A stretch of DNA of 59,645 bases, counting the filler. It is 7 parts of 7 records of this genome, joined end to end, with 100 filler letters (N's around TTAATTAATTAA, not from the genome) between each part and the next. Parts side by side here need not be neighbours in the genome. Positions count along the whole stretch, not along the records: positions 12,733 to 22,459 come from SRR31156797_31666; 6 more parts are not named here. One strand, 5' to 3'. The notes under the pieces are model-generated. The model saw only the letters and a list, made by a program, of their open reading frames with translations. It was not told the DNA's origin and did no database searches. A program made the position numbers and the translations under genes. Below are positions 6,596 through 54,061 of the stretch, in pieces (position 1 is the first letter of the stretch; each line of letters begins with the position of its first letter).

Positions 6596-6695
6596 NNNNN
6601 NNNNNNNNNNNNNNNNNNNNNNNNNNNNNNNNNNNNNNNTTAATTAATTAANNNNNNNNNNNNNNNNNNNNNNNNNNNNNNNNNNNNNNNNNNNN
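6596..6695. other. Artificial contig spacer
   Basis: N run with TTAATTAATTAA linker. Confidence 0.99.
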
Positions 6696-8142: not shown

Positions 8143-9984
8143 ATGTATCTATCAAATTTAAAACTTTGGAACTTTAGAAAATTCGGCAGTGAATCTCCGT
8201 TTGATATTAACAAGCCTGATCTAGATTTAAATTTCACAAATGGATTAAATGTTCTTATAGGAGAAAATGATTCCGGTAAAAGTGCTATTGTTGATGCAAT
8301 TAAACTTACACTAAAAACACATAGCTATGATTGGTTAAAAATTAATCATGAAGATTTTTATTTAGATTCAACAAGATTGAGAATTGAATTAAGATTTGAA
8401 AATCTTTCGGATAATGAAGCCAAAAATTTCACAGAGTGGCTGGGGTGGACAGGTGAAGGTGAACAAGTAGAACCATTTTTACGGTTGATATATGACATTA
8501 ATAGGAACTTAGATGACTATTACATTTACCCATCAGATATTAGAGCTGGTGTTGATGAGATTGGTTACCAATTAACAGCAGAAGCTAGAGAATACCTAAA
8601 ATCTACATATCTTAAACCATTGCGTGATGCAAAATCAGAATTAATTCCACGAAAGAATTCAAGATTAGCTCAAATCCTACAAGGGCATGAGGCTTTTAAA
8701 GGTAAAGATGATAATCATGTATTAGTTGGACTTTTTAAAGACTTTAATTCGTCAGTTGAAAACTACTTCAAAGGAAAAGATAATCAAGATAATGACCTTG
8801 CGGGAGAAAACTTACAAGGAAAAAAGTTAAAGGATGAAGTAGATAAGTTTATTCAAGCATTCTATTCGAAGGAAAAAGAATCAAATTTTGGAGTTCTTGG
8901 AAATTCGTTAAAAAACATCTTAGAAAAACTTGAATTATCAATTAAAGATGAAATAAATCCTGGTTTAGGCACCTTGAACAGATTGTTTATGGCTTCTGAG
9001 TTGCTTCATATACAAAAGAGTGACTGGAGTGGATTAAGACTGGGATTAATTGAGGAATTAGAAGCTCACTTACATCCCCAAGCACAAATGCAAATTATTG
9101 AGGCATTGCAACAAGAAGCTAATATTCAATTAATATTGACAACACATAGTCCTAATTTAGGATCAAAATTGAATCTTGAAAACCTAATACTGTGTACAAA
9201 TAATTCCGCCTACCCACTTGGTTCTGATTACACTCAACTAGAACCAGAAGATTATACTTTCTTAGAAAGATTTTTAGACACTACAAAAGCGAATTTATTC
9301 TTTTCCAAGGGGGTTATATTCGTAGAAGGTTGGGCTGAGGAAATCTTAATTCCTTCTTTGGCTAAACGATTAAAAGCTCAGGATATTATTAAAAATAATT
9401 TAACAGAATCTGGAGTCTCTATTGTTAATATTGGCAACACTGCCTTTTTAAGATATTCTCGAATCTTTTTAAGAAAAGAAGCCGACACTAATGTGTTGAC
9501 AAAACCAGTATCAATTATTACTGATGTAGATATTAGAGATTATGAAAAAGTTCCGAAATATGATGAAGACGGAAATATTATTAAGAATGCCCAGAATAAA
9601 ACCGAGTATGAATATATAAAAAGAGATGCTGATACTGTTACTACGGAATCAAAAGCAAAAGAAATAAGCATTTCAACAGATTGGGAAAAACAGAGTATTA
9701 AAGTATTTGTAGCTCCAAATTGGACACTCGAATATGCTCTGTTTAAATCAACATCTCTAAATGCCAAATTCTGTGAAATATTTAAGGAGATTCATCCAAG
9801 TATTGATTTGGCTAATGCAGAAATGGAATTAGGGAAGAAATTAATAAACAAGGGACTCTATAAAACAGAGATTGCTTATAAATTGGCTCATTCAATTGAA
9901 AGTGATAATATCATAGTAATTGATCAGAATGACGAAGCAATAAAATACTTAATCAATGCAATAAAATATGCCTGTAATGATTAA
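8143..9984 (+). CDS. gajA: OLD-family ATP-dependent endonuclease (GajA-like, ABC ATPase plus TOPRIM)
   Basis: Walker A GENDSGKS, LIEELEAHLHPQAQ, TTHSP, TOPRIM VEGWAEE and TDVD, TLEY; overlaps UvrD gene. Confidence 0.85.
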   Translation: MYLSNLKLWNFRKFGSESPFDINKPDLDLNFTNGLNVLIGENDSGKSAIVDAIKLTLKTHSYDWLKINHEDFYLDSTRLRIELRFENLSDNEAKNFTEWLGWTGEGEQVEPFLRLIYDINRNLDDYYIYPSDIRAGVDEIGYQLTAEAREYLKSTYLKPLRDAKSELIPRKNSRLAQILQGHEAFKGKDDNHVLVGLFKDFNSSVENYFKGKDNQDNDLAGENLQGKKLKDEVDKFIQAFYSKEKESNFGVLGNSLKNILEKLELSIKDEINPGLGTLNRLFMASELLHIQKSDWSGLRLGLIEELEAHLHPQAQMQIIEALQQEANIQLILTTHSPNLGSKLNLENLILCTNNSAYPLGSDYTQLEPEDYTFLERFLDTTKANLFFSKGVIFVEGWAEEILIPSLAKRLKAQDIIKNNLTESGVSIVNIGNTAFLRYSRIFLRKEADTNVLTKPVSIITDVDIRDYEKVPKYDEDGNIIKNAQNKTEYEYIKRDADTVTTESKAKEISISTDWEKQSIKVFVAPNWTLEYALFKSTSLNAKFCEIFKEIHPSIDLANAEMELGKKLINKGLYKTEIAYKLAHSIESDNIIVIDQNDEAIKYLINAIKYACND

Positions 9985-11966
9985 TGTAACTGATGAAGAT
10001 ATCACATTTGCTGAAAGCATTCTGTTAAAAGAGAATCAGCATTTCGATGATGAGAGAATTGAATTTATTAAAAACCTGAGCACAATTGACCTTCAAGCAG
10101 TTCCTGGTAGTGGTAAAACAACAGCACTTTTGGCAAAACTTCTGATCCTTGAAAAATATATGCCGTTAAAAGAAGGGCGTGGAGTTTTGGTTATCTCCCA
10201 TACGAATGCTGCGGTTGATGAGATAAAAGAGCGTATTGGAAAGTATTGTCCAAAACTATTTTCTTATCCCAATTTTGTAGGTACTATTCAAAGTTTTGTT
10301 GATATATTTCTTGCAATACCATTTTACGCTAATCAGTTCAAACAGAAGCCTTATAGAATTGACAATGAAATTTATGATGAACAGGTTGAGAAATTTTATA
10401 TAAACACACCAAATTTAAACTTAAAAACATACTTAGATAGACAAAATGATGGACTGAGCTTTCTTAAATCTATAAGGCTAACAACTCAGGGGAAGTTAAT
10501 TTCTTATTTGAACGGTACTCCTGAATCATTTAAGCTTAAAGATCCAACGAAACCTACATATAAATCATTATTGAATTTCAAGGTGAATATGCTTAAGAAT
10601 GGCTATTTGCATTTTGATGACGCTTATACTTTAGCAAATTTCCAAATTCCCTAAATCTTCTAGTTTATTACAAAAAAGATTTATGTACGTATTTGTTGAT
10701 GAAATGCAAGATATGGATTACCATCAACATGATCTGCTCGAAGAGTTATTTTATTCAGGAGAGAATAATGAATCTATCATCCAAAGGATAGGTGATAAAA
10801 ACCAAGCCATATACAATGGTGGTTCAGTGCATTTAGAATCTATTTGGAGCCAAAGAGAGAATGTGCTTTACATTAATGGAAGCCATCGATTAAATCAAAA
10901 TATTGCGTCTTTAGTGGAGAGACTTGCATTGACTCCGAATCCTGTAGAAGGACGAAATAGAAACATAGATGGTACTGAGATTAACATTAAACCTGTGATA
11001 TTTCTATACAAGGATAATTCTATAGGAGAAGTAATTCCTGCATTTGCAGAAAGAATACGTACTCATTTAGCAAATGGTGATATCTCTAGAGATTTTCCAC
11101 GTAAATACATGGCTATAGGTTGGAGACGAGAACTTGAGGAGGCTAATAAAATTGGACTTTCTGATTATTGGTCTGATTTTTCCATCTTAGCCCGTAATAA
11201 TCAAATAGATTATAAAGTTTTAGCTGATTATATATTGTTCTTTGATAAAGAAAAATTGACTTTTGAAGCAGTACGGAAAAATATATTAAATGCACTATTA
11301 AAAATACTCCGAATCGAGAATGTATATGATGAGTACAATAGGGTATATACAAAAAGGAAGTTAATTAATTTTATGAAACTTCTTGAAAACAATGTTTATG
11401 AGGTGTTAAGTCTAAAACTTTATAGATGGTCTATTGACAGCATTAAAGGAAATCGTGAAGATGTACTAGCATCAATAAGGGAATATATTCCTGATTTTTT
11501 AATGTCATTTGAAAAAGTTGTCGATAAATCTGATGACTTTATTAATGGAGCTTCAGAAATTAACATTGAAGATGTTTTAATGGATACACCGTCTAATGTC
11601 TTTCAAACAGAGGATGTTAATGTGGAGATAGGAACTATACATTCAGCAAAAGGTCAAACACATACTGCAACTCTATATCTTGAAACATACTATCAGAAAG
11701 ATGGTAGAGGATTAACGGCTAAATCATATGAATCTCAAAGATTGGCAGATCAGATATTAGGAACGCAAATAAGAGGTAATGTTGGTGCTAGAGTAAAGCA
11801 GTCTGCAAGAATGGCTTATGTGGGTTTTTCAAGACCTACACATTTACTTTGTTTAGCAATTCATAAGGATAGGTTCGATGCTGTTTTATCGAATATAAAT
11901 AGAGATTTATGGGATTTAGTTGAAGTCGTTGTGGAAACTGAAGTTGAAGCGGAGCAAGCTCAATAA
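9977..11966 (+). pseudogene. gajB: UvrD-like SF1 helicase (GajB-like), split by a frameshift near 10635-10654
   Basis: First frame has AVPGSGKTT, SHTNAA and GTIQSF; second frame has FVDEMQD, GDKNQAIY, SHR, TIHSAKG and YVGFSRP. Confidence 0.8.
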
Positions 11967-12632: not shown

Positions 12633-12732
12633 NNNNNNNNNNNNNNNNNNNNNNNNNNNNNNNNNNNNNNNNNNNNTTAATTAATTAANNNNNNNNNNNN
12701 NNNNNNNNNNNNNNNNNNNNNNNNNNNNNNNN
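12633..12732. other. Artificial contig spacer
   Basis: N run with TTAATTAATTAA linker. Confidence 0.99.
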
Positions 12733-12962
12733 GAGAATTAAACTCAATCGCGATTAAAATTTGATCTCAAAAAAGTTTCTTAAACTAACAAAGACACTAT
12801 AATTATACTAATCTAATCATGAATTTCCTTGAAAATCTGTTTTCTTAACTATCTTTTTCATATTCGTATATATATATATTTCACCCCTTCGGTATATTTT
12901 TCTCTTTTCCATACTTTTGTTAAGCAACCAAGATTCGTTTTAAAAATGACACATAACAAAAC

Positions 12963-12992
12963 AAAAGAGGCTAGCCGTAAAGCTTAGCCTCT
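12963..12992 (-). terminator. Intrinsic terminator of decarboxylase gene
   Basis: AGAGGCTA/TAGCCTCT stem followed by T-rich tract on minus strand. Confidence 0.7.
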
Positions 12993-13000
12993 ATAACTTA

Positions 13001-14618
13001 TTAATATTCAAAATTTTCATCTATATATTTTTTAGCTTCATATACCTCTTCCAGCAAAATATCCATATGCTCATTATCGATAAACGGACTCATAGGATAT
13101 GCTTTTATCGCAACTATCATTCGTTTATTTTTAGTTGTCTTATATGAGTCAGTATATGATACCATTGAGGTTCCGTTTTTCTCGGCTTTAGTAATGATAT
13201 ATTCAGCTATTCGTTTATTATACTCATTTATCTTTTCAGTATACTCTTCCGGCATTTTATCGTGTAGTTCTTTCTTAAACAGAAGTCTTCCGTTATCACA
13301 TTTCACATCTGGATAAAGTCTAAAGTCTGTTACAAATGCAGGATTATGCCTGTTTAGCAAAGATATATCCTTACTAAGTTCCAGTTTCCTTCTGAAATAA
13401 TCTGAAACTGTTAATAAATGGGTAATGAGAGTTTCATATCCCTCTTTCCCCAGAATTTTCATATTTACAAGAGCTTTCTGCGCATAGTTTGGACGACTGG
13501 ATTCAAGTGTAAATGTTCCGGGTTGATAACCATCGCCATGATACAGGTATGGCATCTCTTTCTTAAACTTCTCAAGTAATAACAAATCTTTTTTATTCTT
13601 TACTACAATTACACTACATAAATAAGGACTCCAGCCTGTTTTGTGAAAATCTATTCCTACTGAGTCAGCATATTTTAGATCAGTAATTTTTGACACAACA
13701 TTTTGCAGATTCTTATTTAACTTTTCAGGTAATTCCGGAAAATCTAAATTATTTTTGAAAGTTAAATATGGCCAGCCGATCACTGCATCAGCATGAATAT
13801 GAATCTTGTAATTAACTCTTTTTTGGAATTTATCTCTAAGCTCAGCTATCTTCTTCAGCGGATCTATTCCAAATGCATCAGTTGTACCCATTGTCGCGTA
13901 GATAGTTCCAATACGTGCATTCTCACTTAATGTTTTCTCTAACTCCTGCTCTAACACATCAAGCTTCATCGTGTTATCATCTTTGGACGGAATCACCTTA
14001 ATATTATCTAAACCAATTCCTGTCCAAATTGCTGATGATTTTATACTATAATGTGAGACATCTGAAGAGAAGAAGTGTATCCTGTCTCTTATCCCTGTAT
14101 GCTTTGCATCAGGATCAGCTTTCTCTATACCTATTCTTGCAGCATAAAGATTGCATCCTGTCCCGCCAAATGTAAATATTCCTCCAGCCGATTTTTTATC
14201 AAAATCTATTAAATCTGCGAGCATCCCAACTGCCATAACTTCTGATTGTGCAGCACTCATACCATAATGATCCCATATAGGGTTCTCATTGTATCTCGCC
14301 GCCAGTGCTGCTGCAACAATTGATATTGTTGTTGGCGGAGGAACGACATTTACTTGCATTAGAGGATGTGACCACAGGGAAACTCCTTCGTATAATTCAG
14401 ATATCTCGTTTAATACCTCTTCTTCGTCTTTTATCTTCAAAGGAAAAGTTGATTCTAAAAATAGTTTTTCATAATCCAGATCTTTTTTACTGCCAATTAC
14501 TGTTCCTGACTTTTTTCTTATCAATTACTATCAAAATCTTTTGCAATAGCTTAATTATTTTTTCCTCTTCCTGTTCTGACTTTGTAAAATATTTTCTTAT
14601 CTCATTTATGCCAGGCAT
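13001..14618 (-). CDS. Group II PLP-dependent amino-acid decarboxylase; probable true start 14618 with a frameshift at about 14487-14524
   Basis: GGTGCNLYA, MGTTDAFGIDP, HIHADA and PLP lysine in GIDFHKTGW; GGAGG RBS precedes ATG 14618, none precedes TTG 14524. Confidence 0.88.
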
Positions 14619-14694
14619 ATACTACACCTCCAAAAAAATAGTCTTCAATAGTAGTATATTATTTTAATCAGGAATTTCCTTCGAAAATATTTTT

Positions 14695-14856
14695 TTATAT
14701 ATCTTTTTCTTCTGTTTTCTCATCTATATCAATATTGTTTTGCGATTCTTCTATTGACTTCTCTGTTTCTTTTCCCATAACTGAAACAGGTAATAACCAA
14801 TCATGTAACATTAGCAGCGATAGAAGTGTCTCCCCTTGAACATCTTTGTTTTTCAT
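14695..14856 (-). CDS. 53-aa micro-ORF MKNKDVQGETLLSLLMLHDWLLPVSVMGKETEKSIEESQNNIDIDEKTEEKDI
   Basis: Translated by hand; GAGGT RBS directly after the previous stop codon; absent from ORF track. Confidence 0.65.
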   Translation of the reverse strand: MKNKDVQGETLLSLLMLHDWLLPVSVMGKETEKSIEESQNNIDIDEKTEEKDI

Positions 14857-14871
14857 TTTTCTTACCTCACT

Positions 14872-15012
14872 TTACCATAATTTCTGAATAGTATATGATT
14901 CTTCCTCACAACAATCACTTAACAGATAATAATATGCTACTGAAAATGGCTTTTTAATTAATCCCACTAATTTATTCTCACTTATAAACTGACTTTTAAA
15001 TTGATTTTTCAT
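14872..15012 (-). CDS. 46-aa micro-ORF MKNQFKSQFISENKLVGLIKKPFSVAYYYLLSDCCEEESYTIQKLW
   Basis: Translated by hand; RBS GAGGTAAGAA-ATG, near-identical to that of the next ORF. Confidence 0.65.
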   Translation of the reverse strand: MKNQFKSQFISENKLVGLIKKPFSVAYYYLLSDCCEEESYTIQKLW

Positions 15013-15040
15013 TTCTTACCTCGCTTTTTTATAAACGATA

Positions 15041-15118
15041 TTAAGTATTAACACCTTCCCAATTTAACTTTCCAACAATTTGCTTTATCCTATTTAAAAT
15101 TTCTATCATTTTTTTCAT
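15041..15118 (-). CDS. 25-aa micro-ORF MKKMIEILNRIKQIVGKLNWEGVNT
   Basis: Translated by hand; AAAGGAG RBS; first ORF after predicted promoter. Confidence 0.6.
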   Translation of the reverse strand: MKKMIEILNRIKQIVGKLNWEGVNT

Positions 15119-15154
15119 TCTATTCAACTCCTTTCAAATTTATTCTATGCATAT

Positions 15155-15219
15155 ATCTTATCCCTGTTTTACGATTTTTCTAAGCTACTAAAGTACTATT
15201 TTGAAAAAGTACTTTAGTA
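15155..15219 (-). promoter_or_regulatory. Activator-dependent promoter: perfect 12-bp inverted repeat TACTAAAGTACT-N10-AGTACTTTAGTA, -10 TAAGAT (15160-15155)
   Basis: Proximal box lies 25 nt from the -10; same geometry at 18191 and 22244. Confidence 0.7.
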
Positions 15220-15237
15220 AGATTTTTACAAAAACAA

Positions 15238-15268
15238 AAAAAAGCTATAGCCAGGCTACAACTTTTTT
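15238..15268 (-). terminator. Probable terminator of MalT-like gene
   Basis: Imperfect stem AAAAAAGCTATAGCC/GGCTACAACTTTTTT with flanking A/T runs. Confidence 0.5.
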
Positions 15269-15377
15269 ATTTATAGTGAGTTATATAATAGTTTTGCTAA
15301 CAACAGGTTTTGCATTTCGTAGGGACACATTGCTTGTGCCCGGGCATAAGATTTTTTATCTTTGTAATTCACTATCC

Positions 15378-18119
15378 TTAAATTAATTTTAATTCTCTTG
15401 CTTTTGCAACTGCCTCAGTTCTTCTTCTTACACAAAGTTTCAAAAAGATATTTTGATTATAGCCTTTTACTGTGCTTAAAGCTAAAAATAACTCTTCAGC
15501 TATCTGCTTATTAGAATAACCGTTTGAGATTAATTTCAATATCTCTAACTCTCGTTCGCTCAAAGCTTCTATTAAACTGGAGTTTAACATATTATCATCT
15601 TTATCTTCTTCAAAAGCTTTAATTAGAGCTTTAATAAATTCTGTTTTTTCTGTTTTTGAAGCAAACTCTTTTAATAGTTCATACATCTCTTTACCTTCTG
15701 ATTTGAAAAGAAGTATATGTCTTTCTTTCTCAGCTAAATTTATTAATTTTTGAAATTCAGAAAAATCATCATCTGTTTTCCCCAGCTTTCTCTCAAAAAT
15801 AACTTGAATGGCTAATAACTCCATTAAGTTTTTGATTCTATTTCCCTTTTCTGCTGATAATTTTAATCTATTTAAAAAAGCCACTATATCTTCAGAGCTT
15901 ATTTCACTCTCTTGCTCCCAGAAAAGCATAATATATGCTCTAAGCATCGTTATATGACTAAACTCATCTATATATTTCATATCATCATTTAGACTTAAAT
16001 TAGAGCTTTCTAACCAATCTAAAACCTTATTAACTGCTCTCTGTTTTATAAATATTCTGACTTTTAAACATTCAATTGCTTCAACTTCCGGAACAGGATT
16101 TATTATATAATTTTTTTCGGCATTATTAAGCTCATCTATCGCTTGCTCATACTCATCTATTGCCATTAAATATTTTGCATGAAAAATATTCCAGCTAAAC
16201 AACCAATCGGGAATAGCCACTTTTTCTCCATATTTTTTACTTAAATTAAGATTTTCTTTAGCTTTAAGTAGGTCACCTTGTTCTAATCTGACTTTTCCTA
16301 TTTCAACATATAAACTGGAAATCGTTAATTGTAAAAATTCTCTTTTTTCAAAAGCTAAATTCAGAGCTTCATTAGCAGTATCAAGTGCCTTATCTAATCT
16401 CCCCTGCTCGATCATTAACTCACATATTATCATTTTACAAAGAGTTCCACCTATATAGTTTTCAATTTCCATTAAATTTTTTATTCCAGACTTCATCACT
16501 CTCTCAGCAGGCTCAAATTCACCACTCTTCCAATATGATAATCCGAGTATACTCTCAACACCGCCACGCCTCATATAATCATTTTTCGGAAGAAATTCTA
16601 AAGACTCTGTGAGATACTTCTCTATATCATAGGGGGCTTGTGACACAAGTGCTAAAAAAGCCCGTGCTGAAGAGATAGCTGATTTTAAAAATGGAAATTC
16701 CTCTTCATCGTCAATTACATACTTAGTTTTAGAATTATTCTCATTAATATCAAATAAAATCTCCTCTATTTGCTGAATATTGGGAATAACCAAATCCATT
16801 TCACCTAAAAACAGTAAAGCCCAGGTATATTTTGAAATCAAAACCGGTCTGATATCCAGATATTCTTTTGGAAGTAAACTCATCATCTCAATCCAAGTAC
16901 TTGTTTGGACAATTTCACTTAATTTTCTTACTTCAGTTATTCTGTTATCCATCACAGAACAGATTAATTTTACTTCCAATAATCTCGCTGCCCTGCCAAA
17001 ATCTTCAGCTTTAATTGAATGATGAAATGCTTCTACATAAAGTCTGTTTTCTTCATACCATTTTGCAGCTCTTTTATGTAAAATCTTAATATCAATTTCA
17101 TTAATTAAATCACTTCGCTTGAATTGTTGCCCCAGTAATTCTTTAAATAGATGATGGTATCTGTACCAGACTCTTTCATTATCAAGTGGAATGATAAATG
17201 TATTTGCCTTCTCTAATTCGCTTAATACTTCCCGGGAAGATATTCCCTCATTAGTTAACAAGGCATCACAAAGTGGAGCACAAAATCTTTTTAAAATTGA
17301 GCTGTATAATAGAAATTTTTTAATTGTCTTATTTTGCCCTTTTAGAACTTCTTCTATTAAATAATCCATTACAAAACGATTTTTTCCTGAAAATGACGAA
17401 ATAAACTGCTCCCTGCTCTCTGTTTTTTGAAGTGATAGTGCAGATAATTGTAAACCAGCAATCCATCCCTCTGTTACATCTTCCAATATCTCTATATCTT
17501 TATCAAAGAGGTCTAAACTCATTACATCTGCAAAAAAATGTTTTGCTTCAGATTTAGTAAATCTCAAATCCTCAATACCTATCTCAACCAATTCATTTCT
17601 CACTCTTAATTTCGCAAGTGATAAGTTTGGTTCTTTTCTCGTTGTAATTATCACTCTCATCTGAGGCGGCATATGATCAAGTATAAAATCCAGTGAAGCG
17701 TTAACCTCATCTGAATCAATTAAATGATAATCATCAAGCACTAAAACAAAATCTTCTAACATGCTAATTTCATTAATCAAAATAGTCAATACTGCCTCAT
17801 TGGTTGTTTGTGCCGAGTTAAGTAAACTCTCAATAGCTTCTCCGAAACCTTCGAAAATCTTGCTTATAGAAGCAACCAAGTACATTATGAAATCCTCTAC
17901 ACTATTATCTCTCTCATCTAGTGAAAGCCATGCTGTCAGTTCAGTATTATTATCTATCCACTGACCTGCAAGAGTTGTCTTTCCAAATCCGGCAGGTGCC
18001 GAAATAAGTGTTAGTTTACTATCTAATCCTCTATTTAATTTATCTAATAATCTCGATCTGGCTATTAATTTTGATCTGGATTTTGGTATAAACAATTTTG
18101 TTGCCAATATATTTTTCAT
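15378..18119 (-). CDS. MalT-like STAND ATPase / LuxR-HTH transcriptional activator
   Basis: LATKLFIP start, Walker A APAGFGKTT, LVLDDYH, TEGWIAGLQL, WYRYHHLF, TPR-like region, LSERELEIL LuxR HTH. Confidence 0.95.
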   Translation of the reverse strand: MKNILATKLFIPKSRSKLIARSRLLDKLNRGLDSKLTLISAPAGFGKTTLAGQWIDNNTELTAWLSLDERDNSVEDFIMYLVASISKIFEGFGEAIESLLNSAQTTNEAVLTILINEISMLEDFVLVLDDYHLIDSDEVNASLDFILDHMPPQMRVIITTRKEPNLSLAKLRVRNELVEIGIEDLRFTKSEAKHFFADVMSLDLFDKDIEILEDVTEGWIAGLQLSALSLQKTESREQFISSFSGKNRFVMDYLIEEVLKGQNKTIKKFLLYSSILKRFCAPLCDALLTNEGISSREVLSELEKANTFIIPLDNERVWYRYHHLFKELLGQQFKRSDLINEIDIKILHKRAAKWYEENRLYVEAFHHSIKAEDFGRAARLLEVKLICSVMDNRITEVRKLSEIVQTSTWIEMMSLLPKEYLDIRPVLISKYTWALLFLGEMDLVIPNIQQIEEILFDINENNSKTKYVIDDEEEFPFLKSAISSARAFLALVSQAPYDIEKYLTESLEFLPKNDYMRRGGVESILGLSYWKSGEFEPAERVMKSGIKNLMEIENYIGGTLCKMIICELMIEQGRLDKALDTANEALNLAFEKREFLQLTISSLYVEIGKVRLEQGDLLKAKENLNLSKKYGEKVAIPDWLFSWNIFHAKYLMAIDEYEQAIDELNNAEKNYIINPVPEVEAIECLKVRIFIKQRAVNKVLDWLESSNLSLNDDMKYIDEFSHITMLRAYIMLFWEQESEISSEDIVAFLNRLKLSAEKGNRIKNLMELLAIQVIFERKLGKTDDDFSEFQKLINLAEKERHILLFKSEGKEMYELLKEFASKTEKTEFIKALIKAFEEDKDDNMLNSSLIEALSERELEILKLISNGYSNKQIAEELFLALSTVKGYNQNIFLKLCVRRRTEAVAKARELKLI

Positions 18120-18190
18120 AATAAATCCCCCACAATTTACACATTTTATTTCCTAATATAAGTATAGCATATACGAATACTTAAAAACCA

Positions 18191-18231
18191 TACTTTAGTA
18201 CCATAGATTTTTTGATTATTTAATGTATAAT
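18191..18231 (+). promoter_or_regulatory. Activator box TACTTTAGTA, 25 nt, -10 TATAAT
   Basis: Box identical to the one at 15186-15195 (minus) with identical spacing to the -10. Confidence 0.7.
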
Positions 18232-18286
18232 TATATTATTAAGAATTATACAGAGAAATAAAACTTTAAGTTTAATGGAGGTAAAT

Positions 18287-19135
18287 ATGAATAAATCTTT
18301 TCTTTTTTATTTTATAATTATTATCGCTTTTACTTTAATAATGGGTTCATGTGCTAAAACTAATCAATTTACAGAAAAAAGTTTTGATGAAGTAACAAAT
18401 TCTACTTATAAATTTGAATATCAAAAAAACAAAATAAAACCCGGAATAGTGTATCATTTTCAAATTTCGGATAATGCTAAAAAATATAAAAAACATGTTT
18501 CTCTATATGTTGCTGATTATGACAAAATTGAGGCGTTCAAAATATATCCCGGGTCAAAATCCACTTATTTAGTTAAGTCACAAATTAACTGGAAACTATT
18601 CTCTATACAAGAGATCCAGCAAATAGAGATAAGTAAAGACCTTATAACTAAAAATACAATTAAAATGAACTTAGATGATAAGAATAATTACAATAGTAAT
18701 TATATTTTTAATAATAAACTAGAAATTCCAAATGGACATTTTCCGGTTACTAATCATGGTTATGATTTTTCTGATCTGAATTTTATTTTTAGGCATTTAT
18801 TGGATTTCAAATCTAATGTTGAAATAGGTATCATAGCTCCTGTTAAAAATAGTATCGCTTATGTCGGTAAAATGAAAATTTCATATTTAGGTAATGAAGT
18901 TTATAACAATAAAGAATGCTATAAATACTCTTTGAGCGGAGAAGCCTTAAATAATACTGAAGGAATTTTATTAGTAAATAAAAAATATGGTCATTTTGAG
19001 TATATGGAATTAGCTCTTAATTATCATGCTGAAATGGATTTTTTCAGATATGAACTCTTATCAACTGATACAATGACTGAAACTGAATGGGATGAATATA
19101 TCAAATCAAAAACAAAGGATTATTTTTCAAAATAA
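18287..19135 (+). CDS. Putative lipoprotein, unknown function
   Basis: GGAGG RBS before ATG 18287; signal ending MGSC. Confidence 0.8.
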   Translation: MNKSFLFYFIIIIAFTLIMGSCAKTNQFTEKSFDEVTNSTYKFEYQKNKIKPGIVYHFQISDNAKKYKKHVSLYVADYDKIEAFKIYPGSKSTYLVKSQINWKLFSIQEIQQIEISKDLITKNTIKMNLDDKNNYNSNYIFNNKLEIPNGHFPVTNHGYDFSDLNFIFRHLLDFKSNVEIGIIAPVKNSIAYVGKMKISYLGNEVYNNKECYKYSLSGEALNNTEGILLVNKKYGHFEYMELALNYHAEMDFFRYELLSTDTMTETEWDEYIKSKTKDYFSK

Positions 19136-19165
19136 AACTAAAAATTTAAATGGGGGATTTTTACA

Positions 19166-20257
19166 ATGAAGCAAACTAATAGAATATATTACTTAGATTA
19201 TCTTAAAGTACTAATGATTATTTTTGTAATTATGGTTCATGCTGCTATCACTTTTGGTGGTGTAGGCGGTTGGTACTATCGGGAAGCTGTAAATTTCGAG
19301 CTTGCCGAATATCTATTTACACTATTCAATGCAATACAACAAACATATTTTATGGGATTTTTCTTCTTCATCTCCGGATATTTTACTCCTCGTTCTTATG
19401 ATAAAAAAGGAGCTAAACTATTTTTAAAAGAGAGATTTATCAGGCTTGGAATCCCCTTAGCAGTTTTCTATTTTATACTTAATCCCATATGTGGTGGATT
19501 AGCATATCCTCAGCACATGAGAATTTTAGATTCAATTTTAAATATGAGTTATTTAGGCCCGGGGCCATTATGGTTTGTACAAGCTCTACTTATTTTCTCA
19601 TTAATCTACTCAGCTATTAGAGAGCTTGGAAATAAAAATACAGTGAATATCAAATTTCCGAATACAAAAACTATTGTTATAACTCTCCTTTTGGCAGGAG
19701 TCGCTAATTTCATCATTAGAATATTCATGCCTGTTGGTGAAAGTATACTTGGTATGCAGTTTGCTCATTTTCCAATGTATATTATTTTATTCCCTTGCGG
19801 AGTTATTGCTAATAGAAGTAATTGGCTATCTAAGCTGAGCAAAATAAACTCTCTCTTTTGGAATACTATACTTATTCTTCTAATAATCATATTTATCGCA
19901 TTGATGGTAACTGGAACTGGTGGAAATCCTGATAATTTCATGAGTGGCTTAAGGTGGCAGTCACTATTTTATTCTACATGGGAACCATTTGTCGGAACTG
20001 CTATAATATTTAATCTTCTTTTGTTATTTGAAAGAAAGTTTAATTTTAAATCAAATATAGGTTTATTTTTATCACAGAACGCATATTCCGTATATATTCT
20101 ACACGCTCCGGTATTGATCTACACATCAGTACAATTAAAAAACTGGGATGCTAATCCATTTACTAAATTCTTTATCGCAGTTGGAGTTACATCAGTAGTT
20201 TGCTACATTATTAGCTATCTATTGAGGAAGATTCCAGGTGTTAAAAAAGTTTTATAA
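19166..20257 (+). CDS. Acyltransferase-3 family membrane protein (OpgC/OafA-like)
   Basis: RIYYLDYLK, FFFISGYF, ERFIRLGIP, LWFV, YSVYILH; multiple TM helices. Confidence 0.9.
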   Translation: MKQTNRIYYLDYLKVLMIIFVIMVHAAITFGGVGGWYYREAVNFELAEYLFTLFNAIQQTYFMGFFFFISGYFTPRSYDKKGAKLFLKERFIRLGIPLAVFYFILNPICGGLAYPQHMRILDSILNMSYLGPGPLWFVQALLIFSLIYSAIRELGNKNTVNIKFPNTKTIVITLLLAGVANFIIRIFMPVGESILGMQFAHFPMYIILFPCGVIANRSNWLSKLSKINSLFWNTILILLIIIFIALMVTGTGGNPDNFMSGLRWQSLFYSTWEPFVGTAIIFNLLLLFERKFNFKSNIGLFLSQNAYSVYILHAPVLIYTSVQLKNWDANPFTKFFIAVGVTSVVCYIISYLLRKIPGVKKVL

Positions 20258-20335
20258 ATAACTTTGTAAAACTCCAAATAACTGCTATAATGTCTCAATC
20301 TAATAGGATTTTTATTAGAAAAAGGAGTGGTTATC

Positions 20336-21031
20336 ATGATATTAAGTGGAGTAATTGCAAACTCTCTGGCTGTAAGCATCGGCTCACTGCTTGGAGTTTT
20401 CTTTAAGAATAAATTTAATAAAAAAGTAATAGACACAGTGATGCAGGGAATGGGATTATGTGTGCTGTATATAGGAATATCTGGAAGTTTGAAAGGGCAA
20501 AATATACTTGTAACTATCGGCTCAATAGCTCTTGGTGCTGTAGTTGGTGAACTGATTGATATTGATGAAAGATTAAGAAAAATGGGGTATGCTGTCGAAG
20601 CTAAATTCAAATCACCGGATCAAGAGAATAAAGAATCACTTGCAGAAGGTTTCCTGAATTCAACAATGGTAATTTGCGTGGGAGCTATGGCAATAGTCGG
20701 TTCTCTTCAGAGCGGACTTGTAGGTAATCATGAGACATTGTATGCAAAAGCTTTTATTGATCTATTTGTTGTTCTGGCTATGTCAGCAACTATGGGTATA
20801 GGTGTATTCTTCTCAGCATTTGCGATACTGTTTTATCAGGGAGCTATTACCCTGTTTGCAGGAACTATTGCTCCTTTTTTATCAGAAGTAGTAATCGATG
20901 AAATTACTTGTGTCGGATCACTTGTAATTTTAGCAATTGGATTAAACATACTTGGAATAACTAAAATAAAAGTAGCTAATCTGAGTTTGGCTCCATTTGT
21001 ACCAATAATTATATATTTGTTTATGAATTAA
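20336..21031 (+). CDS. DUF554 family membrane protein
   Basis: GVIANSLAV, CVGAMAIVGSLQSG and KAFID motifs; AAGGAG RBS. Confidence 0.88.
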   Translation: MILSGVIANSLAVSIGSLLGVFFKNKFNKKVIDTVMQGMGLCVLYIGISGSLKGQNILVTIGSIALGAVVGELIDIDERLRKMGYAVEAKFKSPDQENKESLAEGFLNSTMVICVGAMAIVGSLQSGLVGNHETLYAKAFIDLFVVLAMSATMGIGVFFSAFAILFYQGAITLFAGTIAPFLSEVVIDEITCVGSLVILAIGLNILGITKIKVANLSLAPFVPIIIYLFMN

Positions 21032-21061
21032 TAACACATTAAGATATTTAATCAATAATAA

Positions 21062-21098
21062 AAAAGGTGATTTCAGAATTTTACTGGAATCACCTTTT
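21062..21098 (+). terminator. Intrinsic terminator
   Basis: AAAAGGTGATT/AATCACCTTTT stem. Confidence 0.75.
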
Positions 21099-21211
21099 GC
21101 TTCTTACAATTCCTTTTTATTTTTTTACACTTATTTTACTCATTTGTAATTGTTTTTTTACAAATATTTAGTATCATTAAATAAAAATAATGAAATTAAG
21201 GAGGAGTTAAC

Positions 21212-21637
21212 ATGGCAATACAAAAAGCATTATTCGTTTGTTTACACAACTCTGCAAGAAGCCAGATGGCGGAAGCATTTTTAGCAAAATATGGAAAAGG
21301 AATCGAGGTTGATAGTGCTGGAATTGAAGCTTCTCAAATTAATCCAAACGTCGTAAAAGTAATGTTGGAAGAAGGAATCGACCTTTCTAACAAAGGAACA
21401 CAAAAAGTTTTTGATCTTTATAAAGCTGGGAATATTTATACTTATGTAATAGCTGTTTGTGAAGAAGCTTCTCAAAAATGCCCGATCTTTCCTGGAATTA
21501 CTCATAGAATTGACTGGAGTTTCAAAGATCCTTCTCAATTCGAAGGAACAGAAGAGGAAATTTTAGCTCAAACCAGAGAAGTTAGAGATGCAATAAAAAC
21601 ACAAATAATTGAATTTATTGAAAAAGAGTTAAGCTAA
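21212..21637 (+). CDS. arsC: Thioredoxin-type arsenate reductase (LMW-PTP fold)
   Basis: [16 protein letters not shown]-loop, resolving Cys in VC...CPIFPG, WSFKDP. Confidence 0.88.
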
Positions 21638-21647
21638 TAGTAGCTAA

Positions 21648-21693
21648 AATCAATCAAAATTGAGAGCTTCTTTGCTCTCAATTTTGATTGATT
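21648..21693. terminator. Bidirectional terminator, perfect 20-bp stem
   Basis: AATCAATCAAAATTGAGAGC-6 nt-GCTCTCAATTTTGATTGATT between convergent genes. Confidence 0.8.
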
Positions 21694-21712
21694 ATTTAAG
21701 TAAATATTATTT

Positions 21713-22159
21713 CTAAATCACTTCTTCAAATTCGCATCTACTATAGGCTTTCCATAATATATTATCCTCTGAAACGTTATTTCCATCTATACAATATATT
21801 CCCTTTACTACAAGATCTCGATAAGCTCTACTTCCAGTTAATGGATTAATCGTTATTGTATCGTTTTCTATCAGAGTTGTTGAGTATGTTATATTTGCAT
21901 TTGATTCATTTAGTGTTGATCCCTTTGTTTCAAATCCTACTGACCAACCTTTTGTAATATTACTATCTAAGCTTCTATTAAATACAAGTTCTAACACATC
22001 TATTGAATCATTACTCACTATATTAATTTCTGATGTTTTTGACCTATTTAAGATATCTGTATTCCCGCATCCGCTAATGGCAATTGCTAAAATTAAAGCT
22101 AATAACATCTTACAATTTTTTAATAAAAACTTCCCATTTTTCTTTTTTCTAATTCTCAT
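21713..22159 (-). CDS. Putative lipoprotein, unknown function
   Basis: GGAGG RBS before ATG 22159; LALILAIAISGC lipobox. Confidence 0.7.
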   Translation of the reverse strand: MRIRKKKNGKFLLKNCKMLLALILAIAISGCGNTDILNRSKTSEINIVSNDSIDVLELVFNRSLDSNITKGWSVGFETKGSTLNESNANITYSTTLIENDTITINPLTGSRAYRDLVVKGIYCIDGNNVSEDNILWKAYSRCEFEEVI

Positions 22160-22212
22160 CTTTAAAGCCTCCAACATTTAATTCATTTTTTCGTATTTTA
22201 AATCGTACATCT

Positions 22213-22255
22213 ATTTTACTTTTATTATTAATTTTTTTTATGCTACTTAAGTACT
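22213..22255 (-). promoter_or_regulatory. Activator box TACTTAAGTA, 25 nt, -10 TAAAAT
   Basis: 9/10 match to the other boxes with identical spacing. Confidence 0.65.
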
Positions 22256-22350
22256 TTTCTTGATTAAAATAAGTATGTTTTTGAATAATTATTAAAATTT
22301 TTAGCATACAAAAAAAGAACCTCTTAAAAAAAGAAGTTCTTTACTTACTA

Positions 22351-22459
22351 TTATATTAAATTTAACTCTTTTGCTCTCGCAACAGCTTCTGTTCGTCTTT
22401 TTACATTTAGCTTTTGAAACATATTCTGATTATAACCTTTAATAGTACTAATTGCTAAA
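22351..22459 (-). CDS. C-terminal LuxR HTH of a second MalT-like regulator (5'-partial)
   Basis: LAISTIKGYNQNMFQKLNVKRRTEAVARAKELNLI* aligns with the C-terminus of 15378..18119; absent from ORF track. Confidence 0.9.
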
Positions 22460-22559
22460 NNNNNNNNNNNNNNNNNNNNNNNNNNNNNNNNNNNNNNNNN
22501 NNNTTAATTAATTAANNNNNNNNNNNNNNNNNNNNNNNNNNNNNNNNNNNNNNNNNNNN
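22460..22559. other. Artificial contig spacer
   Basis: N run with TTAATTAATTAA linker. Confidence 0.99.
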
Positions 22560-31500: not shown

Positions 31501-32673
31501 AATGGAATACTCCGTACTTCCTGGCTGACTATGAGTTTGAGCATTAATACTTGGGTCTGCTGCGTCATATCTGGTAGTAATCTCTACTACATCTCCAGCA
31601 GTAATAACATTACCAGCTTCATCCTTTACCCTGATTGAATATACATGCTCACCAGAATTCGTAACTGTCAAAGTTTCACCCAGTAATTCAACATATGAAC
31701 CACCGTCAATGCTGTATTCATATGTTTCAGGGCTCTGTCCGGATGCAGGATTTCTAGGGTCAAGCTCAATAGTAATAGGCTGATTAGTCCAGTCATTGGC
31801 ACTAACCTGAGGATTATCATCCATAATGGGGATGTCTTTATCAATATTGGAGAGATTAACTACGAAATCATCACTTTGTCTGTTTGCATTATCCACTGCA
31901 TAATATGTATAGTCAACTCCAGATTCAGTAACTGTAAATGCATATGAATCATTTGATGTTACCAAACCAGATGCATTGTATATTCCCTTGACTCCGCTAG
32001 GGTCAGATACGTTTAACGTTACATCAACATTTTGATTAGTCCACTCAGTTGTGCTGTAAGTTGGAGTTATAACCGGATCGCCGTCATCTAGGATTTTTAC
32101 ATCAATATTTGAAAAGACTATGTCATTTGTAGATAGAGTAATGTCAGTCTGGTCATAACGAACTTCTACAATAATAAATTTTGTGTTGGCAGGGATTATA
32201 TCATTAGATAAGAACGAAAATGCTGTACCCGAATTATTTGTTATATTTTGTGTTTCACTGATTAAAGGTACCGAGCTATATGCGCCAGCGAAGTCAGTAC
32301 CACATTTTACATTCATAGTAATATCTACACTGCCTGTGCCAGTAAACTCATCAATAAAAACAGATGTTGATGCTTTAATAGTAATTGGATAATTAGTTAT
32401 TGCAGTAATTAAATCAGAATCCATCAGCTCATAGTACACCATTGCATATGCCTCTGCAGGTGAACTATTGACATTAGGCATCTTTGCACCATAATTACCG
32501 CTTTCCACAGTAGTAGTTGTATTATATGGTGCCCATGTACCTATTTCGGCAATATTCTTTTCGAACTCACTGCTTGCTGGTACATCTCCAGCAAATGCAA
32601 TATCAGCAAGTAATACATTTGCTGATAGTAAAAATAACACAAGTGCGAAGCTCAGTTTCTTCCCCATATTCAT
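22560..32673 (-). CDS. Giant secreted adhesin-like protein with tandem cadherin-like/Ig (tandem-95, Big_9) repeats (3'-partial)
   Basis: Signal peptide; many VNDAP...EDT...DxDxD...YTP...DxFxY units; over 3370 aa, open at contig edge. Confidence 0.92.
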
Positions 32674-34077: not shown

Positions 34078-34177
34078 NNNNNNNNNNNNNNNNNNNNNNN
34101 NNNNNNNNNNNNNNNNNNNNNTTAATTAATTAANNNNNNNNNNNNNNNNNNNNNNNNNNNNNNNNNNNNNNNNNNNN
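34078..34177. other. Artificial contig spacer
   Basis: N run with TTAATTAATTAA linker. Confidence 0.99.
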
Positions 34178-41142: not shown

Positions 41143-41242
41143 NNNNNNNNNNNNNNNNNNNNNNNNNNNNNNNNNNNNNNNNNNNNTTAATTAATTAANN
41201 NNNNNNNNNNNNNNNNNNNNNNNNNNNNNNNNNNNNNNNNNN
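41143..41242. other. Artificial contig spacer
   Basis: N run with TTAATTAATTAA linker. Confidence 0.99.
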
Positions 41243-50018: not shown

Positions 50019-50229
50019 TATCTTGTATGCCTTTACTGAGTGGATTGTCCATTCGGGTTCCGAAGCGCCTTAATACTCACAGTCTACTTAAGTACTTTTC
50101 CGTCTTTCCAGGCATGTCCCACGCATTCGCCGATGGACCAATACCGGTTATCCGGCATGGTCAAAACAAACGAATTCGCCTTTTTAATGTCCGGGTTTCC
50201 GTGACCCGGTATGTGAATCGAGGTCCTGA

Positions 50230-53961: not shown

Positions 53962-54061
53962 NNNNNNNNNNNNNNNNNNNNNNNNNNNNNNNNNNNNNNN
54001 NNNNNTTAATTAATTAANNNNNNNNNNNNNNNNNNNNNNNNNNNNNNNNNNNNNNNNNNNN
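53962..54061. other. Artificial contig spacer
   Basis: N run with TTAATTAATTAA linker. Confidence 0.99.

What the first reader, a model, noticed from the sequence alone, without database searches (positions are those of the whole stretch)
13001..15219. Three unannotated micro-peptide genes plus a PLP decarboxylase downstream of a MalT-type activator: candidate peptide/amine signalling or modification system
Seen: a region with no minus-strand ORF-track calls holds three consecutive co-oriented ORFs of 25, 46 and 53 aa, each with a strong RBS (AAAGGAG, GAGGT, GAGGT). Two share the initiation region GAGGTAAGAA(AA)ATGAAAAA, and the gaps are only 28 and 15 nt. They follow a promoter with a perfect 12-bp inverted repeat and precede a group II decarboxylase and a terminator. 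Peptide 1 looks like an amphipathic helix, peptide 2 has a YYYLLSDCCEEE core, and peptide 3 has a hydrophobic core and acidic tail. Established: MalT-like STAND regulators are ligand-activated through a TPR-like sensor, and group II decarboxylases make amines. Inference: a regulated micro-protein operon (signal peptides, regulator-binding proteins or modification substrates) that matches no system I recognise. The decarboxylase may have its own promoter in the 76-nt gap, so co-transcription is unproven.
Basis: partly seen in the sequence, partly recalled or inferred. Interest (0 to 1): 0.75.

Follow-up and report, generated by a model that had tools for sequence, protein, structure and literature searches.

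The report
Orphan small ORFs before a decarboxylase
Three short genes with good ribosome-binding sites really do sit between a MalT-like regulator and a PLP decarboxylase, but they have no relatives anywhere we could search, so this looks like a one-off regulated operon and not a recognisable peptide or amine system.

Summary
On the minus strand lie a 913-aa MalT-like regulator, a terminator hairpin, a perfect 12-10-12 inverted repeat, three SD-led ATG ORFs (25, 46, 53 aa; gaps 28 and 15 nt), a group II PLP decarboxylase and a terminator. Three such ORFs in 619 nt occurred in 1 of 2000 shuffles, and their codon usage is coding-like.

Corrections:
- The window is seven contigs glued by N-linkers. 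The locus lies on a 9.7-kb, 30% GC contig.
- The decarboxylase is broken by a +1 frameshift in an A-run. Its first 36 codons are the 43-aa ORF at 14618.
- P2 and P3 share one frame, separated by a single TAA.

The repeat's right arm recurs behind a truncated paralogous regulator on the same contig, which supports an operator. P1-P3 have no homologues in any search made. None of 80 loci with related decarboxylases has them or a full-length MalT-like neighbour. No peptide-modifying, processing or export genes lie on the contig.

Best reading: a lineage-specific activator-controlled operon with orphan, probably translated micro-cistrons of unknown role. Interest is modest.

The parts
15378..18119 (-). 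MalT/LAL-type STAND regulator, 913 aa (P-loop NTPase, MalT-like TPR sensor, LuxR/GerE HTH)
   Evidence: Pfam gives TPR_MalT 6.2e-33, GerE 8.3e-17 and AAA_16 2.7e-6. The NCBIfam MalT model aligns over 5-910 at 371 bits, under its 537-bit cut-off. Plasmid-borne relatives reach 28-35% identity over the full length.
15238..15268 (-). Terminator-like hairpin plus T-tract after the regulator gene
   Evidence: Listed by the scan (14 pairs). The fold is -13.5 kcal/mol, z = -3.5.
15184..15221 (.). Perfect 12-bp inverted repeat TACTAAAGTACT-N10-AGTACTTTAGTA; candidate operator of the LuxR-type HTH
   Evidence: Searches show the repeat. The 14-mer AGTACTTWAGTAGC over the right arm recurs at 22242-22255. 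There are 4 hits against 0.42 expected, and 0 of 100 shuffles reached 4. Binding by the regulator is inferred, not shown.
15041..15118 (-). P1, 25-aa ORF (MKKMIEILNRIKQIVGKLNWEGVNT), net charge +3
   Evidence: SD AAAGGAG, 9-nt spacer, ATG. Codon log-odds 0.24, exceeded by 0.7% of 148 shadow ORFs. No homologue was found.
14872..15012 (-). P2, 46-aa ORF, net charge +1
   Evidence: SD GAGGT, 6-nt spacer, ATG. Codon log-odds 0.03, which is borderline: 6% of shadow ORFs score as high, much like the true decarboxylase N-terminal piece. No homologue was found. The AF2 single-sequence model is one helix at pLDDT 62.
14695..14856 (-). P3, 53-aa ORF, net charge -7, hydrophobic segment 10-28 and acidic tail
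   Evidence: SD GAGGT, 8-nt spacer, ATG. Codon log-odds 0.44, above all 148 shadow ORFs. The best 19-residue Kyte-Doolittle window averages 1.42. The AF2 model has a helix at 2-39, pLDDT 76. No homologue was found.
14487..14618 (-). First 36 codons of the decarboxylase (43-aa ORF, SD GGAGGTG), cut off by a frameshift
   Evidence: Homologues of 537-546 aa begin M..ID.IR.LF...GEE.KI...ID.KK.GT.IG. tblastn places this ORF directly upstream of the decarboxylase match in 7 loci (L001, L002, L004, L005, L007, L008, L011) at E 1.5e-5 to 4e-3.
13001..14524 (-). Main body of the group II PLP decarboxylase (507-aa ORF, +1 frame relative to 14618)
   Evidence: PF00282 scores 106 bits. Identity to ~540-aa proteins from Ilyobacter and Desulfobacterales MAGs and Methanolobus is 66-73%. 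H158, D246 and K295 are invariant in a 48-sequence alignment; their roles in binding PLP are recalled, not tested. Reading one step across the A-run gives IDKKKSGTVIGSKK, co-linear with homologues.
12954..12992 (-). Intrinsic-terminator-like hairpin and T-tract after the decarboxylase
   Evidence: The fold is -18 kcal/mol, z = -3.0. The contig ends at 12733.
22351..22459 (-). 3' end of a second, paralogous LuxR/MalT-type regulator, cut by the contig end
   Evidence: 26 of its 35 last residues are identical to the C-terminus of the 913-aa regulator. The two DNAs align through the coding 3' ends and diverge downstream.
22242..22255 (-). Second copy of the operator-like 14-mer (AGTACTTAAGTAGC), between the paralogue's terminator and a lipoprotein-like gene (21713-22177)

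Best explanation
This is a lineage-specific transcription unit controlled by a MalT/LAL-type activator. It is not a conserved peptide or amine system.

Proposed mechanism:
1. The 913-aa STAND regulator, on binding an unknown ligand, occupies the 12-10-12 inverted repeat. This step is inferred.
2. It switches on a promoter just upstream of P1. This step is inferred.
3. One mRNA then carries three short cistrons (25, 46 and 53 aa) and the decarboxylase, ending at the hairpin near 12966-12992.

The three short ORFs are most likely translated. Each has a Shine-Dalgarno site of the kind this contig's real genes use. They are orphan micro-proteins, probably helical: one basic, one near-neutral and one strongly acidic. 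Their role is unknown.

The enzyme belongs to an uncharacterised ~540-aa clade of group II PLP decarboxylases, which elsewhere occurs alone in unrelated contexts. In this assembly its gene carries one extra A in an A-run (near 14515). This is either a sequence error or a real inactivating or phase-type mutation.
For: Architecture and signals:
- Searches give the layout, the repeat and the hairpins.
- In one search's list the contig's genes carry SD sites: GGAGG-type cores at 18287, 21212, 22159 and 14618, and AAGGAG at 20336. All three small ORFs have GGAG or GAGG cores 6-9 nt before an ATG.
- 3 SD-led ORFs in 619 nt compare with a mean of 0.03 in shuffles; 1 of 2000 shuffles reached 3.
- Codon log-odds are coding-like for P1 and P3 and borderline for P2.
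- No terminator-like site lies between P1 and the decarboxylase.

Operator reading:
- The 14-mer over the repeat's right arm recurs after the truncated paralogous regulator.

Lineage-specific reading:
- P2 and P3 found no candidate in 5.8 billion clustered proteins.
- The P2-TAA-P3 read-through gave 2 hits among 1.84 billion representatives. Both are multi-stretch matches to proteins that look internally repetitive by eye, and I judge them spurious.
- Against the 80 decarboxylase loci, tblastn gave 0 hits at E <= 1 for P1 and P2, and 1 chance-level hit (E 0.22, L053) for P3.
- The regulator gave no full-length match in those loci, only one 57-aa HTH hit in L022.
- The 12 closest loci have unrelated neighbours and no comparable run of SD-led ORFs upstream.

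Frameshift:
-.
Against: - No transcript, protein or binding data exist. Promoter, operator and co-transcription are all inferred.
- The consensus scan found no good sigma-70 match directly upstream of P1. Its nearest hit overlaps the P1 start.
- P2's codon score is only borderline.
- No close relative of this organism could be examined. The best decarboxylase match is 73% identical, the window's own proteins did not appear, and metagenome contigs were closed. 'Not conserved' therefore means no relative close enough to be seen. A 50-aa peptide at about 40% identity would fall below the E-value limits.
- If the frameshift is real, the operon's main gene is dead and the locus may be decaying.
Confidence: 0.5

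Rival explanations
1. The locus is decaying, or the ORFs are noise. The small ORFs would be non-functional: proto-genes, remnants of a lost gene, or ORFs kept open by chance in a long AT-rich leader. The frameshifted decarboxylase would be a pseudogene.
For: - The decarboxylase is interrupted.
- P2 and P3 lie in one frame separated by a single TAA.
- No homologue was found for any of the three ORFs.
- The region is the most AT-rich part of the contig at 26.5% GC, and P1 and P2 are at 23-25%.
Against: - Three correctly spaced SD sites with ATG starts are very unlikely by chance (1 of 2000 shuffles).
- Each ORF has a stop just upstream in its own frame, so the ORFs are not pieces of one frame. 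The SD of P2 itself contains an in-frame TAA.
- Six-frame Pfam at E <= 10 gave 0 families in five frames and one chance-level match (E 0.095) in the sixth.
- The read-through fusion gave only 2 hits that I judge spurious.
- The regulator is full length.
- A single extra base in a homopolymer is also what an assembly error looks like.
Confidence: 0.2
2. The ORFs are cis-acting leader cistrons. On this reading it is their translation, not their products, that tunes decarboxylase expression. Possible routes are shielding the leader from Rho, setting mRNA stability, or sensing a metabolite through a nascent peptide, as with speFL before speF or tnaC.
For: - The ORFs lie directly upstream of an amino-acid decarboxylase gene in the same orientation, with short gaps.
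- There is a precedent in an ornithine-sensing leader ORF before an inducible ornithine decarboxylase. For bioRxiv 10.1101/604074 and PMC6386406 I saw only the search listing and the starts of the abstracts.
Against: - No terminator-like site lies between the ORFs and the enzyme gene.
- The 641-nt leader has no unusual RNA structure (z = 0.19), and Rfam gave only one far sub-threshold hit.
- Three strong, separate cistrons are not the usual single leader.
- None of the 12 closest decarboxylase loci has a comparable upstream ORF. Where a co-oriented upstream gene exists, the gap is about 30-190 nt (L001, L006, L007, L008, L010).
Confidence: 0.12
3. The micro-proteins act in trans as signals, as ligands or modulators of the MalT-like regulator, or as substrates of the PLP enzyme (a RiPP-like or amine-terminated peptide system).
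For: - The ORFs sit between a sensor-bearing regulator and a PLP enzyme and are probably translated.
- P1 is a basic amphipathic helix ending in Thr. That superficially recalls daptide precursors, for which I read passages of bioRxiv 10.1101/2023.03.08.531785.
- P3 has a near-hydrophobic segment followed by an acidic tail.
Against: - No RRE, dehydrogenase, methyltransferase, protease or transporter was found on the contig.
- The three peptides are unrelated to one another.
- Only P1 ends in Thr, and none carries the ELExMEAP leader motif quoted.
- No peptide has a clear signal or membrane segment; the best 19-residue hydropathy is 1.42.
- The enzyme clade occurs without such peptides in 80 of 80 loci.
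- MalT-like relatives on plasmids have unrelated neighbours in the 3 loci inspected of 290 records with a match.
Confidence: 0.08

Closest known systems
MalT / LAL-family (large ATP-binding LuxR) activators and their target operons
   Same: The regulator has the same three-part build of P-loop NTPase, MalT-like TPR sensor and GerE HTH. It aligns end to end with the MalT model. It lies next to a candidate target operon with a palindromic site.
   Different: It scores 371 bits against the 537-bit cut-off, so it is not MalT itself. No maltose genes are nearby. The candidate operator is a 12-10-12 inverted repeat, whereas MalT boxes are, from recall, short asymmetric repeats. The ligand is unknown.
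Group II PLP-dependent amino-acid decarboxylases (PanP, DABA decarboxylase, MfnA, GAD, TDC, HDC)
   Same: It has the PF00282 domain. The residues that, from recall, bind PLP are invariant in the clade: His in SHYS, Asp in HADAV and Lys in HKTGW.
   Different: It is far below every equivalog cut-off. The best is PanP at 97 bits against 606. The nearest solved structures score only E ~1e-19. It forms a separate ~540-aa clade of unknown substrate, and it is frameshifted here.
speFL-speF / tnaC-type leader ORFs before catabolic amino-acid enzymes
   Same: Short ORFs lie immediately upstream of an amino-acid-converting enzyme gene.
   Different: Here there are three unrelated cistrons instead of one. 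No conserved arrest motif is known, no terminator or RNA structure is present, and nothing is conserved upstream of homologous enzymes. The papers were seen only as a listing and abstract starts.
Daptide RiPP clusters (several short precursors plus a PLP enzyme)
   Same: Several adjacent short ORFs lie next to a PLP-dependent enzyme. P1 is helical, cationic and ends in Thr.
   Different: The class-defining DUF-RRE protein, alcohol-dehydrogenase-like oxidative decarboxylase, aminotransferase, methyltransferase and RRE-peptidase are all absent from the contig. The ORFs are dissimilar and lack the leader motif (passages read).

Membership tests
MalT/LAL STAND regulators | N-terminal P-loop NTPase (NOD) domain | tested here: inconclusive
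   AAA_16 scores 28.4 bits (E 2.7e-6), under its 32.6-bit cut-off. NB-ARC and AAA_22 match only weakly. The full-length MalT model does align from residue 5.
MalT/LAL STAND regulators | MalT-like TPR/sensor region | tested here: met
   PF17874 scores 114.9 bits against a cut-off of 45, over residues 482-820.
MalT/LAL STAND regulators | C-terminal LuxR/GerE HTH | tested here: met
   PF00196 scores 61 bits against a cut-off of 23.5, over residues 852-906.
MalT proper (equivalog) | Score above the curated MalT cut-off | tested here: not met
   NF003420 scores 371.2 bits against a cut-off of 537.
MalT/LAL STAND regulators | Ligand- and ATP-dependent oligomerisation and binding to the operator | not testable with these tools
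   This needs biochemistry. Only the shared 14-mer behind two paralogous regulators bears on it.
Group II PLP decarboxylase | Pyridoxal_deC domain with the PLP-binding Lys, His and Asp | tested here: met
   PF00282 scores 106.4 bits. H158, D246 and K295 are invariant among 48 sequences. The assignment of their roles is recalled.
Group II PLP decarboxylase | Intact reading frame | tested here: not met
   The N-terminal 36 codons are in another frame. Homologues are continuous ORFs of 526-567 aa in 10 of the 12 closest loci; L009 (500 aa) and L003 (a different start) read otherwise. Whether this is an error or a real mutation cannot be told from the sequence.
Named decarboxylase equivalogs (PanP, DABA-DC, MfnA, TDC, HDC, GAD) | Score above the curated cut-off | tested here: not met
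   Scores against cut-offs are 97/606, 90/900, 62/299, 52/905, 49/305 and 40/380 bits.
RiPP / daptide-like cluster | Modifying enzymes, an RRE protein, a protease or an exporter next to the precursors | tested here: not met
   The other contig genes are an acyltransferase_3, a DUF554 protein, an ArsC-like phosphatase and two genes with lipoprotein-like N-termini as read by eye and no family match. Only 268 nt of contig lie beyond the decarboxylase, so genes further on are unseen.
RiPP / daptide-like cluster | Several similar precursors with a shared leader motif and an invariant C-terminal residue | tested here: not met
   P2 and P3 give no BLASTP alignment at E <= 100. The DNA of the three ORFs aligns poorly outside the start regions. 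The C-termini are T, W and I.
Leader-peptide attenuator (speFL/tnaC type) | Terminator or RNA switch between the leader ORF and the regulated gene | tested here: not met
   No terminator-like site lies in 14619-15180. The fold z-score is 0.19. Rfam gave no match at E < 0.66. Rho-dependent control cannot be tested here.
Conserved small-protein gene | Homologues in other genomes | tested here: not met
   Sensitivity for peptides this short is low, and no sister genome was available.

The most novel reading that the evidence does not exclude
A MalT-family STAND activator whose activity is set by micro-proteins encoded in its own target operon. One or more of the basic P1, the aromatic-rich P2 and the acidic P3 would bind the sensor or the HTH as a feedback modulator. 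This would couple an uncharacterised clade of PLP decarboxylase to a protein-based, not a small-molecule, signal.
Probability: 0.05. Interest if true: 0.7.

Novelty: new member of a known kind. Interest (0 to 1): 0.3.

Why it matters
If the three ORFs are translated, they add to the poorly charted set of bacterial micro-proteins that automatic annotation misses. They come with a clean test bed: a candidate operator, a sensor-bearing activator and an enzyme of unknown substrate. As it stands, the case shows that a striking local pattern can be statistically real and still be a one-off. The enzyme clade and the regulator family both occur widely without these peptides. No general peptide or amine signalling system can therefore be claimed from this contig.

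Tried and rejected
Whether these ORFs were ever called as genes elsewhere stays unchecked.
- Co-folding of the regulator (residues 1-845) with P2 and P3, with P3 as partner, gave no verdict (score 0.01 against a mark of 0.34). I draw no conclusion from it either way.
- AF2 single-sequence models of P3 and P2 gave single helices at pLDDT 76 and 62. That is the default outcome for an orphan sequence and says little. No fold search was run on them.
- The ESM Atlas gave no usable hit for P2 or P3.
- PHROGs and PADLOC found nothing for the peptides.
- The PDB sequence search found nothing for P2 or P3, and only E >= 0.67 for P1.
- blastn of 14619-15377 against plasmids gave a 59-nt AT-rich match inside a Cetobacterium gene in 2 records. 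Against phages it gave nothing.
- A structured-RNA reading of the leader was rejected.
- A Tyr-sensing attenuator built on the YYY in P2 was considered and rejected. There is no terminator/antiterminator pair, and starvation-type attenuation is the wrong logic for a catabolic enzyme. This is inference.
- Programmed +1 frameshifting at AAA-AAA-G was considered. Slipping there would give the homologous reading. No homologue among the 12 closest loci has a break at this junction, so I prefer an error or a mutation. It is not excluded.
- Paralogy of P2 and P3 was rejected.
- Literature: four searches surfaced no described system of this make-up. They were not exhaustive, and subscription journals are not covered.
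The neighbourhoods of regulator homologues were seen only on plasmids, 3 loci inspected of 290 records.
Full report
**What the window is.**
The 59,645-base window is not one piece of DNA. Six linkers of 44 N, TTAATTAATTAA and 44 N join seven contigs whose GC ranges from 30% to 55%. The finding lies on the contig 12733-22459, which is 9,727 bp at 30.4% GC. Genes beyond the linkers are not physical neighbours. This includes the Gabija-like pair at 8143-11966. Only 268 nt of contig lie beyond the decarboxylase stop.

**Checking the observation.**
Reading the minus strand gives this order:

| Feature | Coordinates |
|---|---|
| MalT-like regulator | 18119..15378 |
| Terminator-like hairpin with T-tract | 15268..15238 |
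| Perfect inverted repeat TACTAAAGTACT-N10-AGTACTTTAGTA | 15219..15186 |
| P1, 25 aa | 15118..15041 |
| P2, 46 aa | 15012..14872 |
| P3, 53 aa | 14856..14695 |
| Decarboxylase | 14618..13001 |
| Terminator-like hairpin | about 12992..12966 |

- The hairpin after the regulator was found by the scan and folds at z = -3.5.
- The inverted repeat is shown.
- The hairpin after the decarboxylase folds at -18 kcal/mol, z = -3.0.
- P2 and P3 share a 23-nt initiation region at 83% identity, followed by ATGAAAAA.

The pattern is more than chance. In 2000 dinucleotide-preserving shuffles of the 619-nt stretch, the mean number of SD-led ATG ORFs of at least 25 aa was 0.03, and one shuffle reached three. 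In 34 kb of AT-rich contigs there are only four other SD-led ATG ORFs of 25-60 aa. One is the decarboxylase's own N-terminal piece. Three are antisense ORFs inside the giant cadherin-like gene.

**Are the ORFs likely translated?**
- In one search's list the contig's genes carry strong SD sites. GGAGG-type cores precede the starts at 18287, 21212, 22159 and 14618, and AAGGAG precedes 20336.
- A codon log-odds model was trained on 18 long ORFs of the AT-rich contigs.

| ORF | Score per codon |
|---|---|
| P1 | 0.24 |
| P2 | 0.03 |
| P3 | 0.44 |
| True N-terminal piece of the decarboxylase | 0.08 |
| 148 shadow ORFs | mean -0.34, 95th percentile 0.06 |
| In-frame gene chunks | mean 0.22 |

- P1 and P3 therefore look coding. 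P2 is borderline but no worse than a known coding piece.
- The leader has no unusual RNA structure (z = 0.19) and no Rfam match better than E = 0.66.

**The decarboxylase is in two frames.**
- Homologues are 537-546 aa and start M..ID.IR.LF...GEE.KI...ID.KK.GT.IG.
- That N-terminus is encoded by the 43-aa ORF at 14618..14487. The rest lies in the +1 frame from 14524.
- tblastn puts the 43-aa ORF directly in front of the decarboxylase match in seven loci: L001, L002, L004, L005, L007, L008 and L011.
- Taking one extra base at the A-run gives IDKKKSGTVIGSKK, co-linear with IDEKKHGTVIGRKK of the best homologue.
- The gene therefore carries one A too many in a run of six. The sequence alone cannot say whether this is an assembly error, a real inactivating mutation or a slippage-prone site.
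- The enzyme has the PF00282 domain and residues H158, D246 and K295, which are invariant in the clade.
- It sits far under every named equivalog cut-off, and its nearest solved structures score only E ~1e-19. It belongs to an uncharacterised clade.

**Comparative evidence.**
Of these, 9 have 61-72% identity and the rest 51% or less.
- They come from Ilyobacter, Desulfobacterales and Deltaproteobacteria MAGs, a Vibrio MAG, Methanolobus and many more distant phyla.
- tblastn of P1-P3 against all 80 loci gave nothing at E <= 1 for P1 or P2. For P3 it gave one chance-level hit (E 0.22) about 6 kb downstream of the decarboxylase in L053. At E <= 100 there was only noise.
- The regulator matched none of the loci beyond a single 57-aa HTH segment in L022.
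- In the 12 closest loci the neighbours differ from locus to locus. Where a co-oriented upstream gene exists, the gap is about 30-190 nt (L001, L006, L007, L008, L010). No comparable run of SD-led small ORFs was seen.
- P2 and P3 found no candidates among 5.8 billion clustered proteins.
- P2 read through its TAA into P3 found only two hits among 1.84 billion representatives. Both are multi-stretch matches to proteins that look internally repetitive, and I judge them spurious.
- Also empty for the peptides were Pfam, including six frames of the whole region at E <= 10 (which gave only one chance-level match at E 0.095), NCBIfam, PHROGs, PADLOC, the PDB, the ESM Atlas, and blastn against plasmids and phages.
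- Limits: peptides this short are only found if quite similar. The window's own genome and its close relatives are not in the searched sets. Metagenome contigs were closed.

**A second module on the same contig.**
- The contig's other end (22459..22351, minus strand) encodes the last 35 residues of another LuxR-type regulator. Of these, 26 are identical to the C-terminus of the 913-aa protein.
- It too is followed by a terminator hairpin (z = -4.1) and then by AGTACTTAAGTAGC at 22255..22242.
- That 14-mer is one mismatch from AGTACTTTAGTAGC, the right arm of the repeat plus two bases.
- At up to 2 mismatches the 14-mer has 4 hits in the window against 0.42 expected, and none of 100 shuffles reached 4.
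- The gene behind this second site has a lipoprotein-like N-terminus and no small ORFs before it.
- This is the best evidence that the repeat is an operator for this regulator family, and that regulator, terminator, operator and target form the unit.
- It also shows that the small ORFs are not an obligatory part of that unit.
- Regulator relatives on plasmids (28-35% identity over the full length) have unrelated neighbours in the three loci inspected of 290 records.

**What the peptides look like.**
- P1 is a +3 amphipathic-looking 25-mer ending in Thr.
- P2 is near neutral, with the YYYLLSDCCEEE core.
- P3 has net charge -7, with a segment at 10-28 whose hydropathy (1.42) is below the ~1.6 usually taken (from recall) for a membrane helix, and an acidic tail.
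- The three are unrelated to one another.
- Single-sequence AF2 models are single helices at pLDDT 76 and 62.

**Explanation and rivals.**
- My preferred reading (0.5) is a lineage-specific, activator-controlled operon in which three orphan micro-cistrons are co-expressed with the decarboxylase. The SD sites, codon usage and statistics support translation. Promoter, operator occupancy and co-transcription are inferred.
- A decaying or noisy locus (0.2) is kept alive by the frameshift, the in-frame TAA between P2 and P3, and the lack of any homologue.
- Cis-acting leader cistrons (0.12) fit the position, but not the absence of a terminator or structure, nor the lack of anything similar upstream of homologous enzymes.
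Daptide-type RiPPs are the nearest published case of several short ORFs beside a PLP enzyme. They are defined by RRE, dehydrogenase, methyltransferase and peptidase genes and by similar Thr-ended precursors with a leader motif (passages read). None of these is met here.

**Verdict.**
The small ORFs are unclassifiable orphans. Interest is modest at 0.3, because nothing further can be learned without sister genomes or wet-lab data.

Noticed in passing
window 6596-6695, 12633-12732, 22460-22559, 34078-34177, 41143-41242, 53962-54061: Six linkers of N44-TTAATTAATTAA-N44 join seven contigs with GC of 30-55%. The window is a concatenated and probably mixed bin, so adjacency across linkers is not real.
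   Followed up: yes
window 22242-22459: The 3' end of a second, paralogous LuxR/MalT-type regulator is followed by a terminator and the same 14-mer as the repeat's right arm. Behind it lies a gene with a lipoprotein-like N-terminus, 21713-22177.
   Followed up: yes
window 8143-11966 (a different contig): A Gabija-like pair: an OLD-family ATPase with a TOPRIM domain (8143-9984) and a UvrD-like helicase split into 228-aa and 427-aa ORFs. By hand reading of the sequence, the frameshift lies between 10635 and 10651.
   Followed up: partly
window 18189-18200: A 10-of-12 match to the repeat arm (TACTAAAGTATG) lies in the regulator's own upstream region, between the divergent genes at 18119 and 18287. 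This may hint at autoregulation. 12-mer matches overall are not above chance (8 against 4.6 expected).
   Followed up: partly
window 50083-50096: A fourth copy of the 14-mer (AGTACTTAAGTAGA, 1 mismatch) lies between two minus-strand genes on a ~50% GC contig. This may be coincidence, or a sign that the contigs share a regulon.
   Followed up: no
window 22504-32673: A 3389-aa ORF packed with Big_9 and cadherin-like repeats. Its 5' end runs into the linker at 22504, so it is probably cut by the contig end.
   Followed up: no
proteins P0063, P0069-P0073, P0082, P0083, P0096, P0097, P0107, P0120: More distant relatives of the decarboxylase (38-42% identity; 664-696 aa) carry fused STAS or anti-sigma-antagonist domains. 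This suggests some members of the wider family are wired into partner-switching signalling.
   Followed up: no
L001 6851-7722: In the Ilyobacter MAG, the closest locus (72% identity), two small membrane-protein ORFs lie directly upstream of the decarboxylase in the same orientation. From recall their N-termini look LysO/DUF340-like. I did not test this.
   Followed up: no
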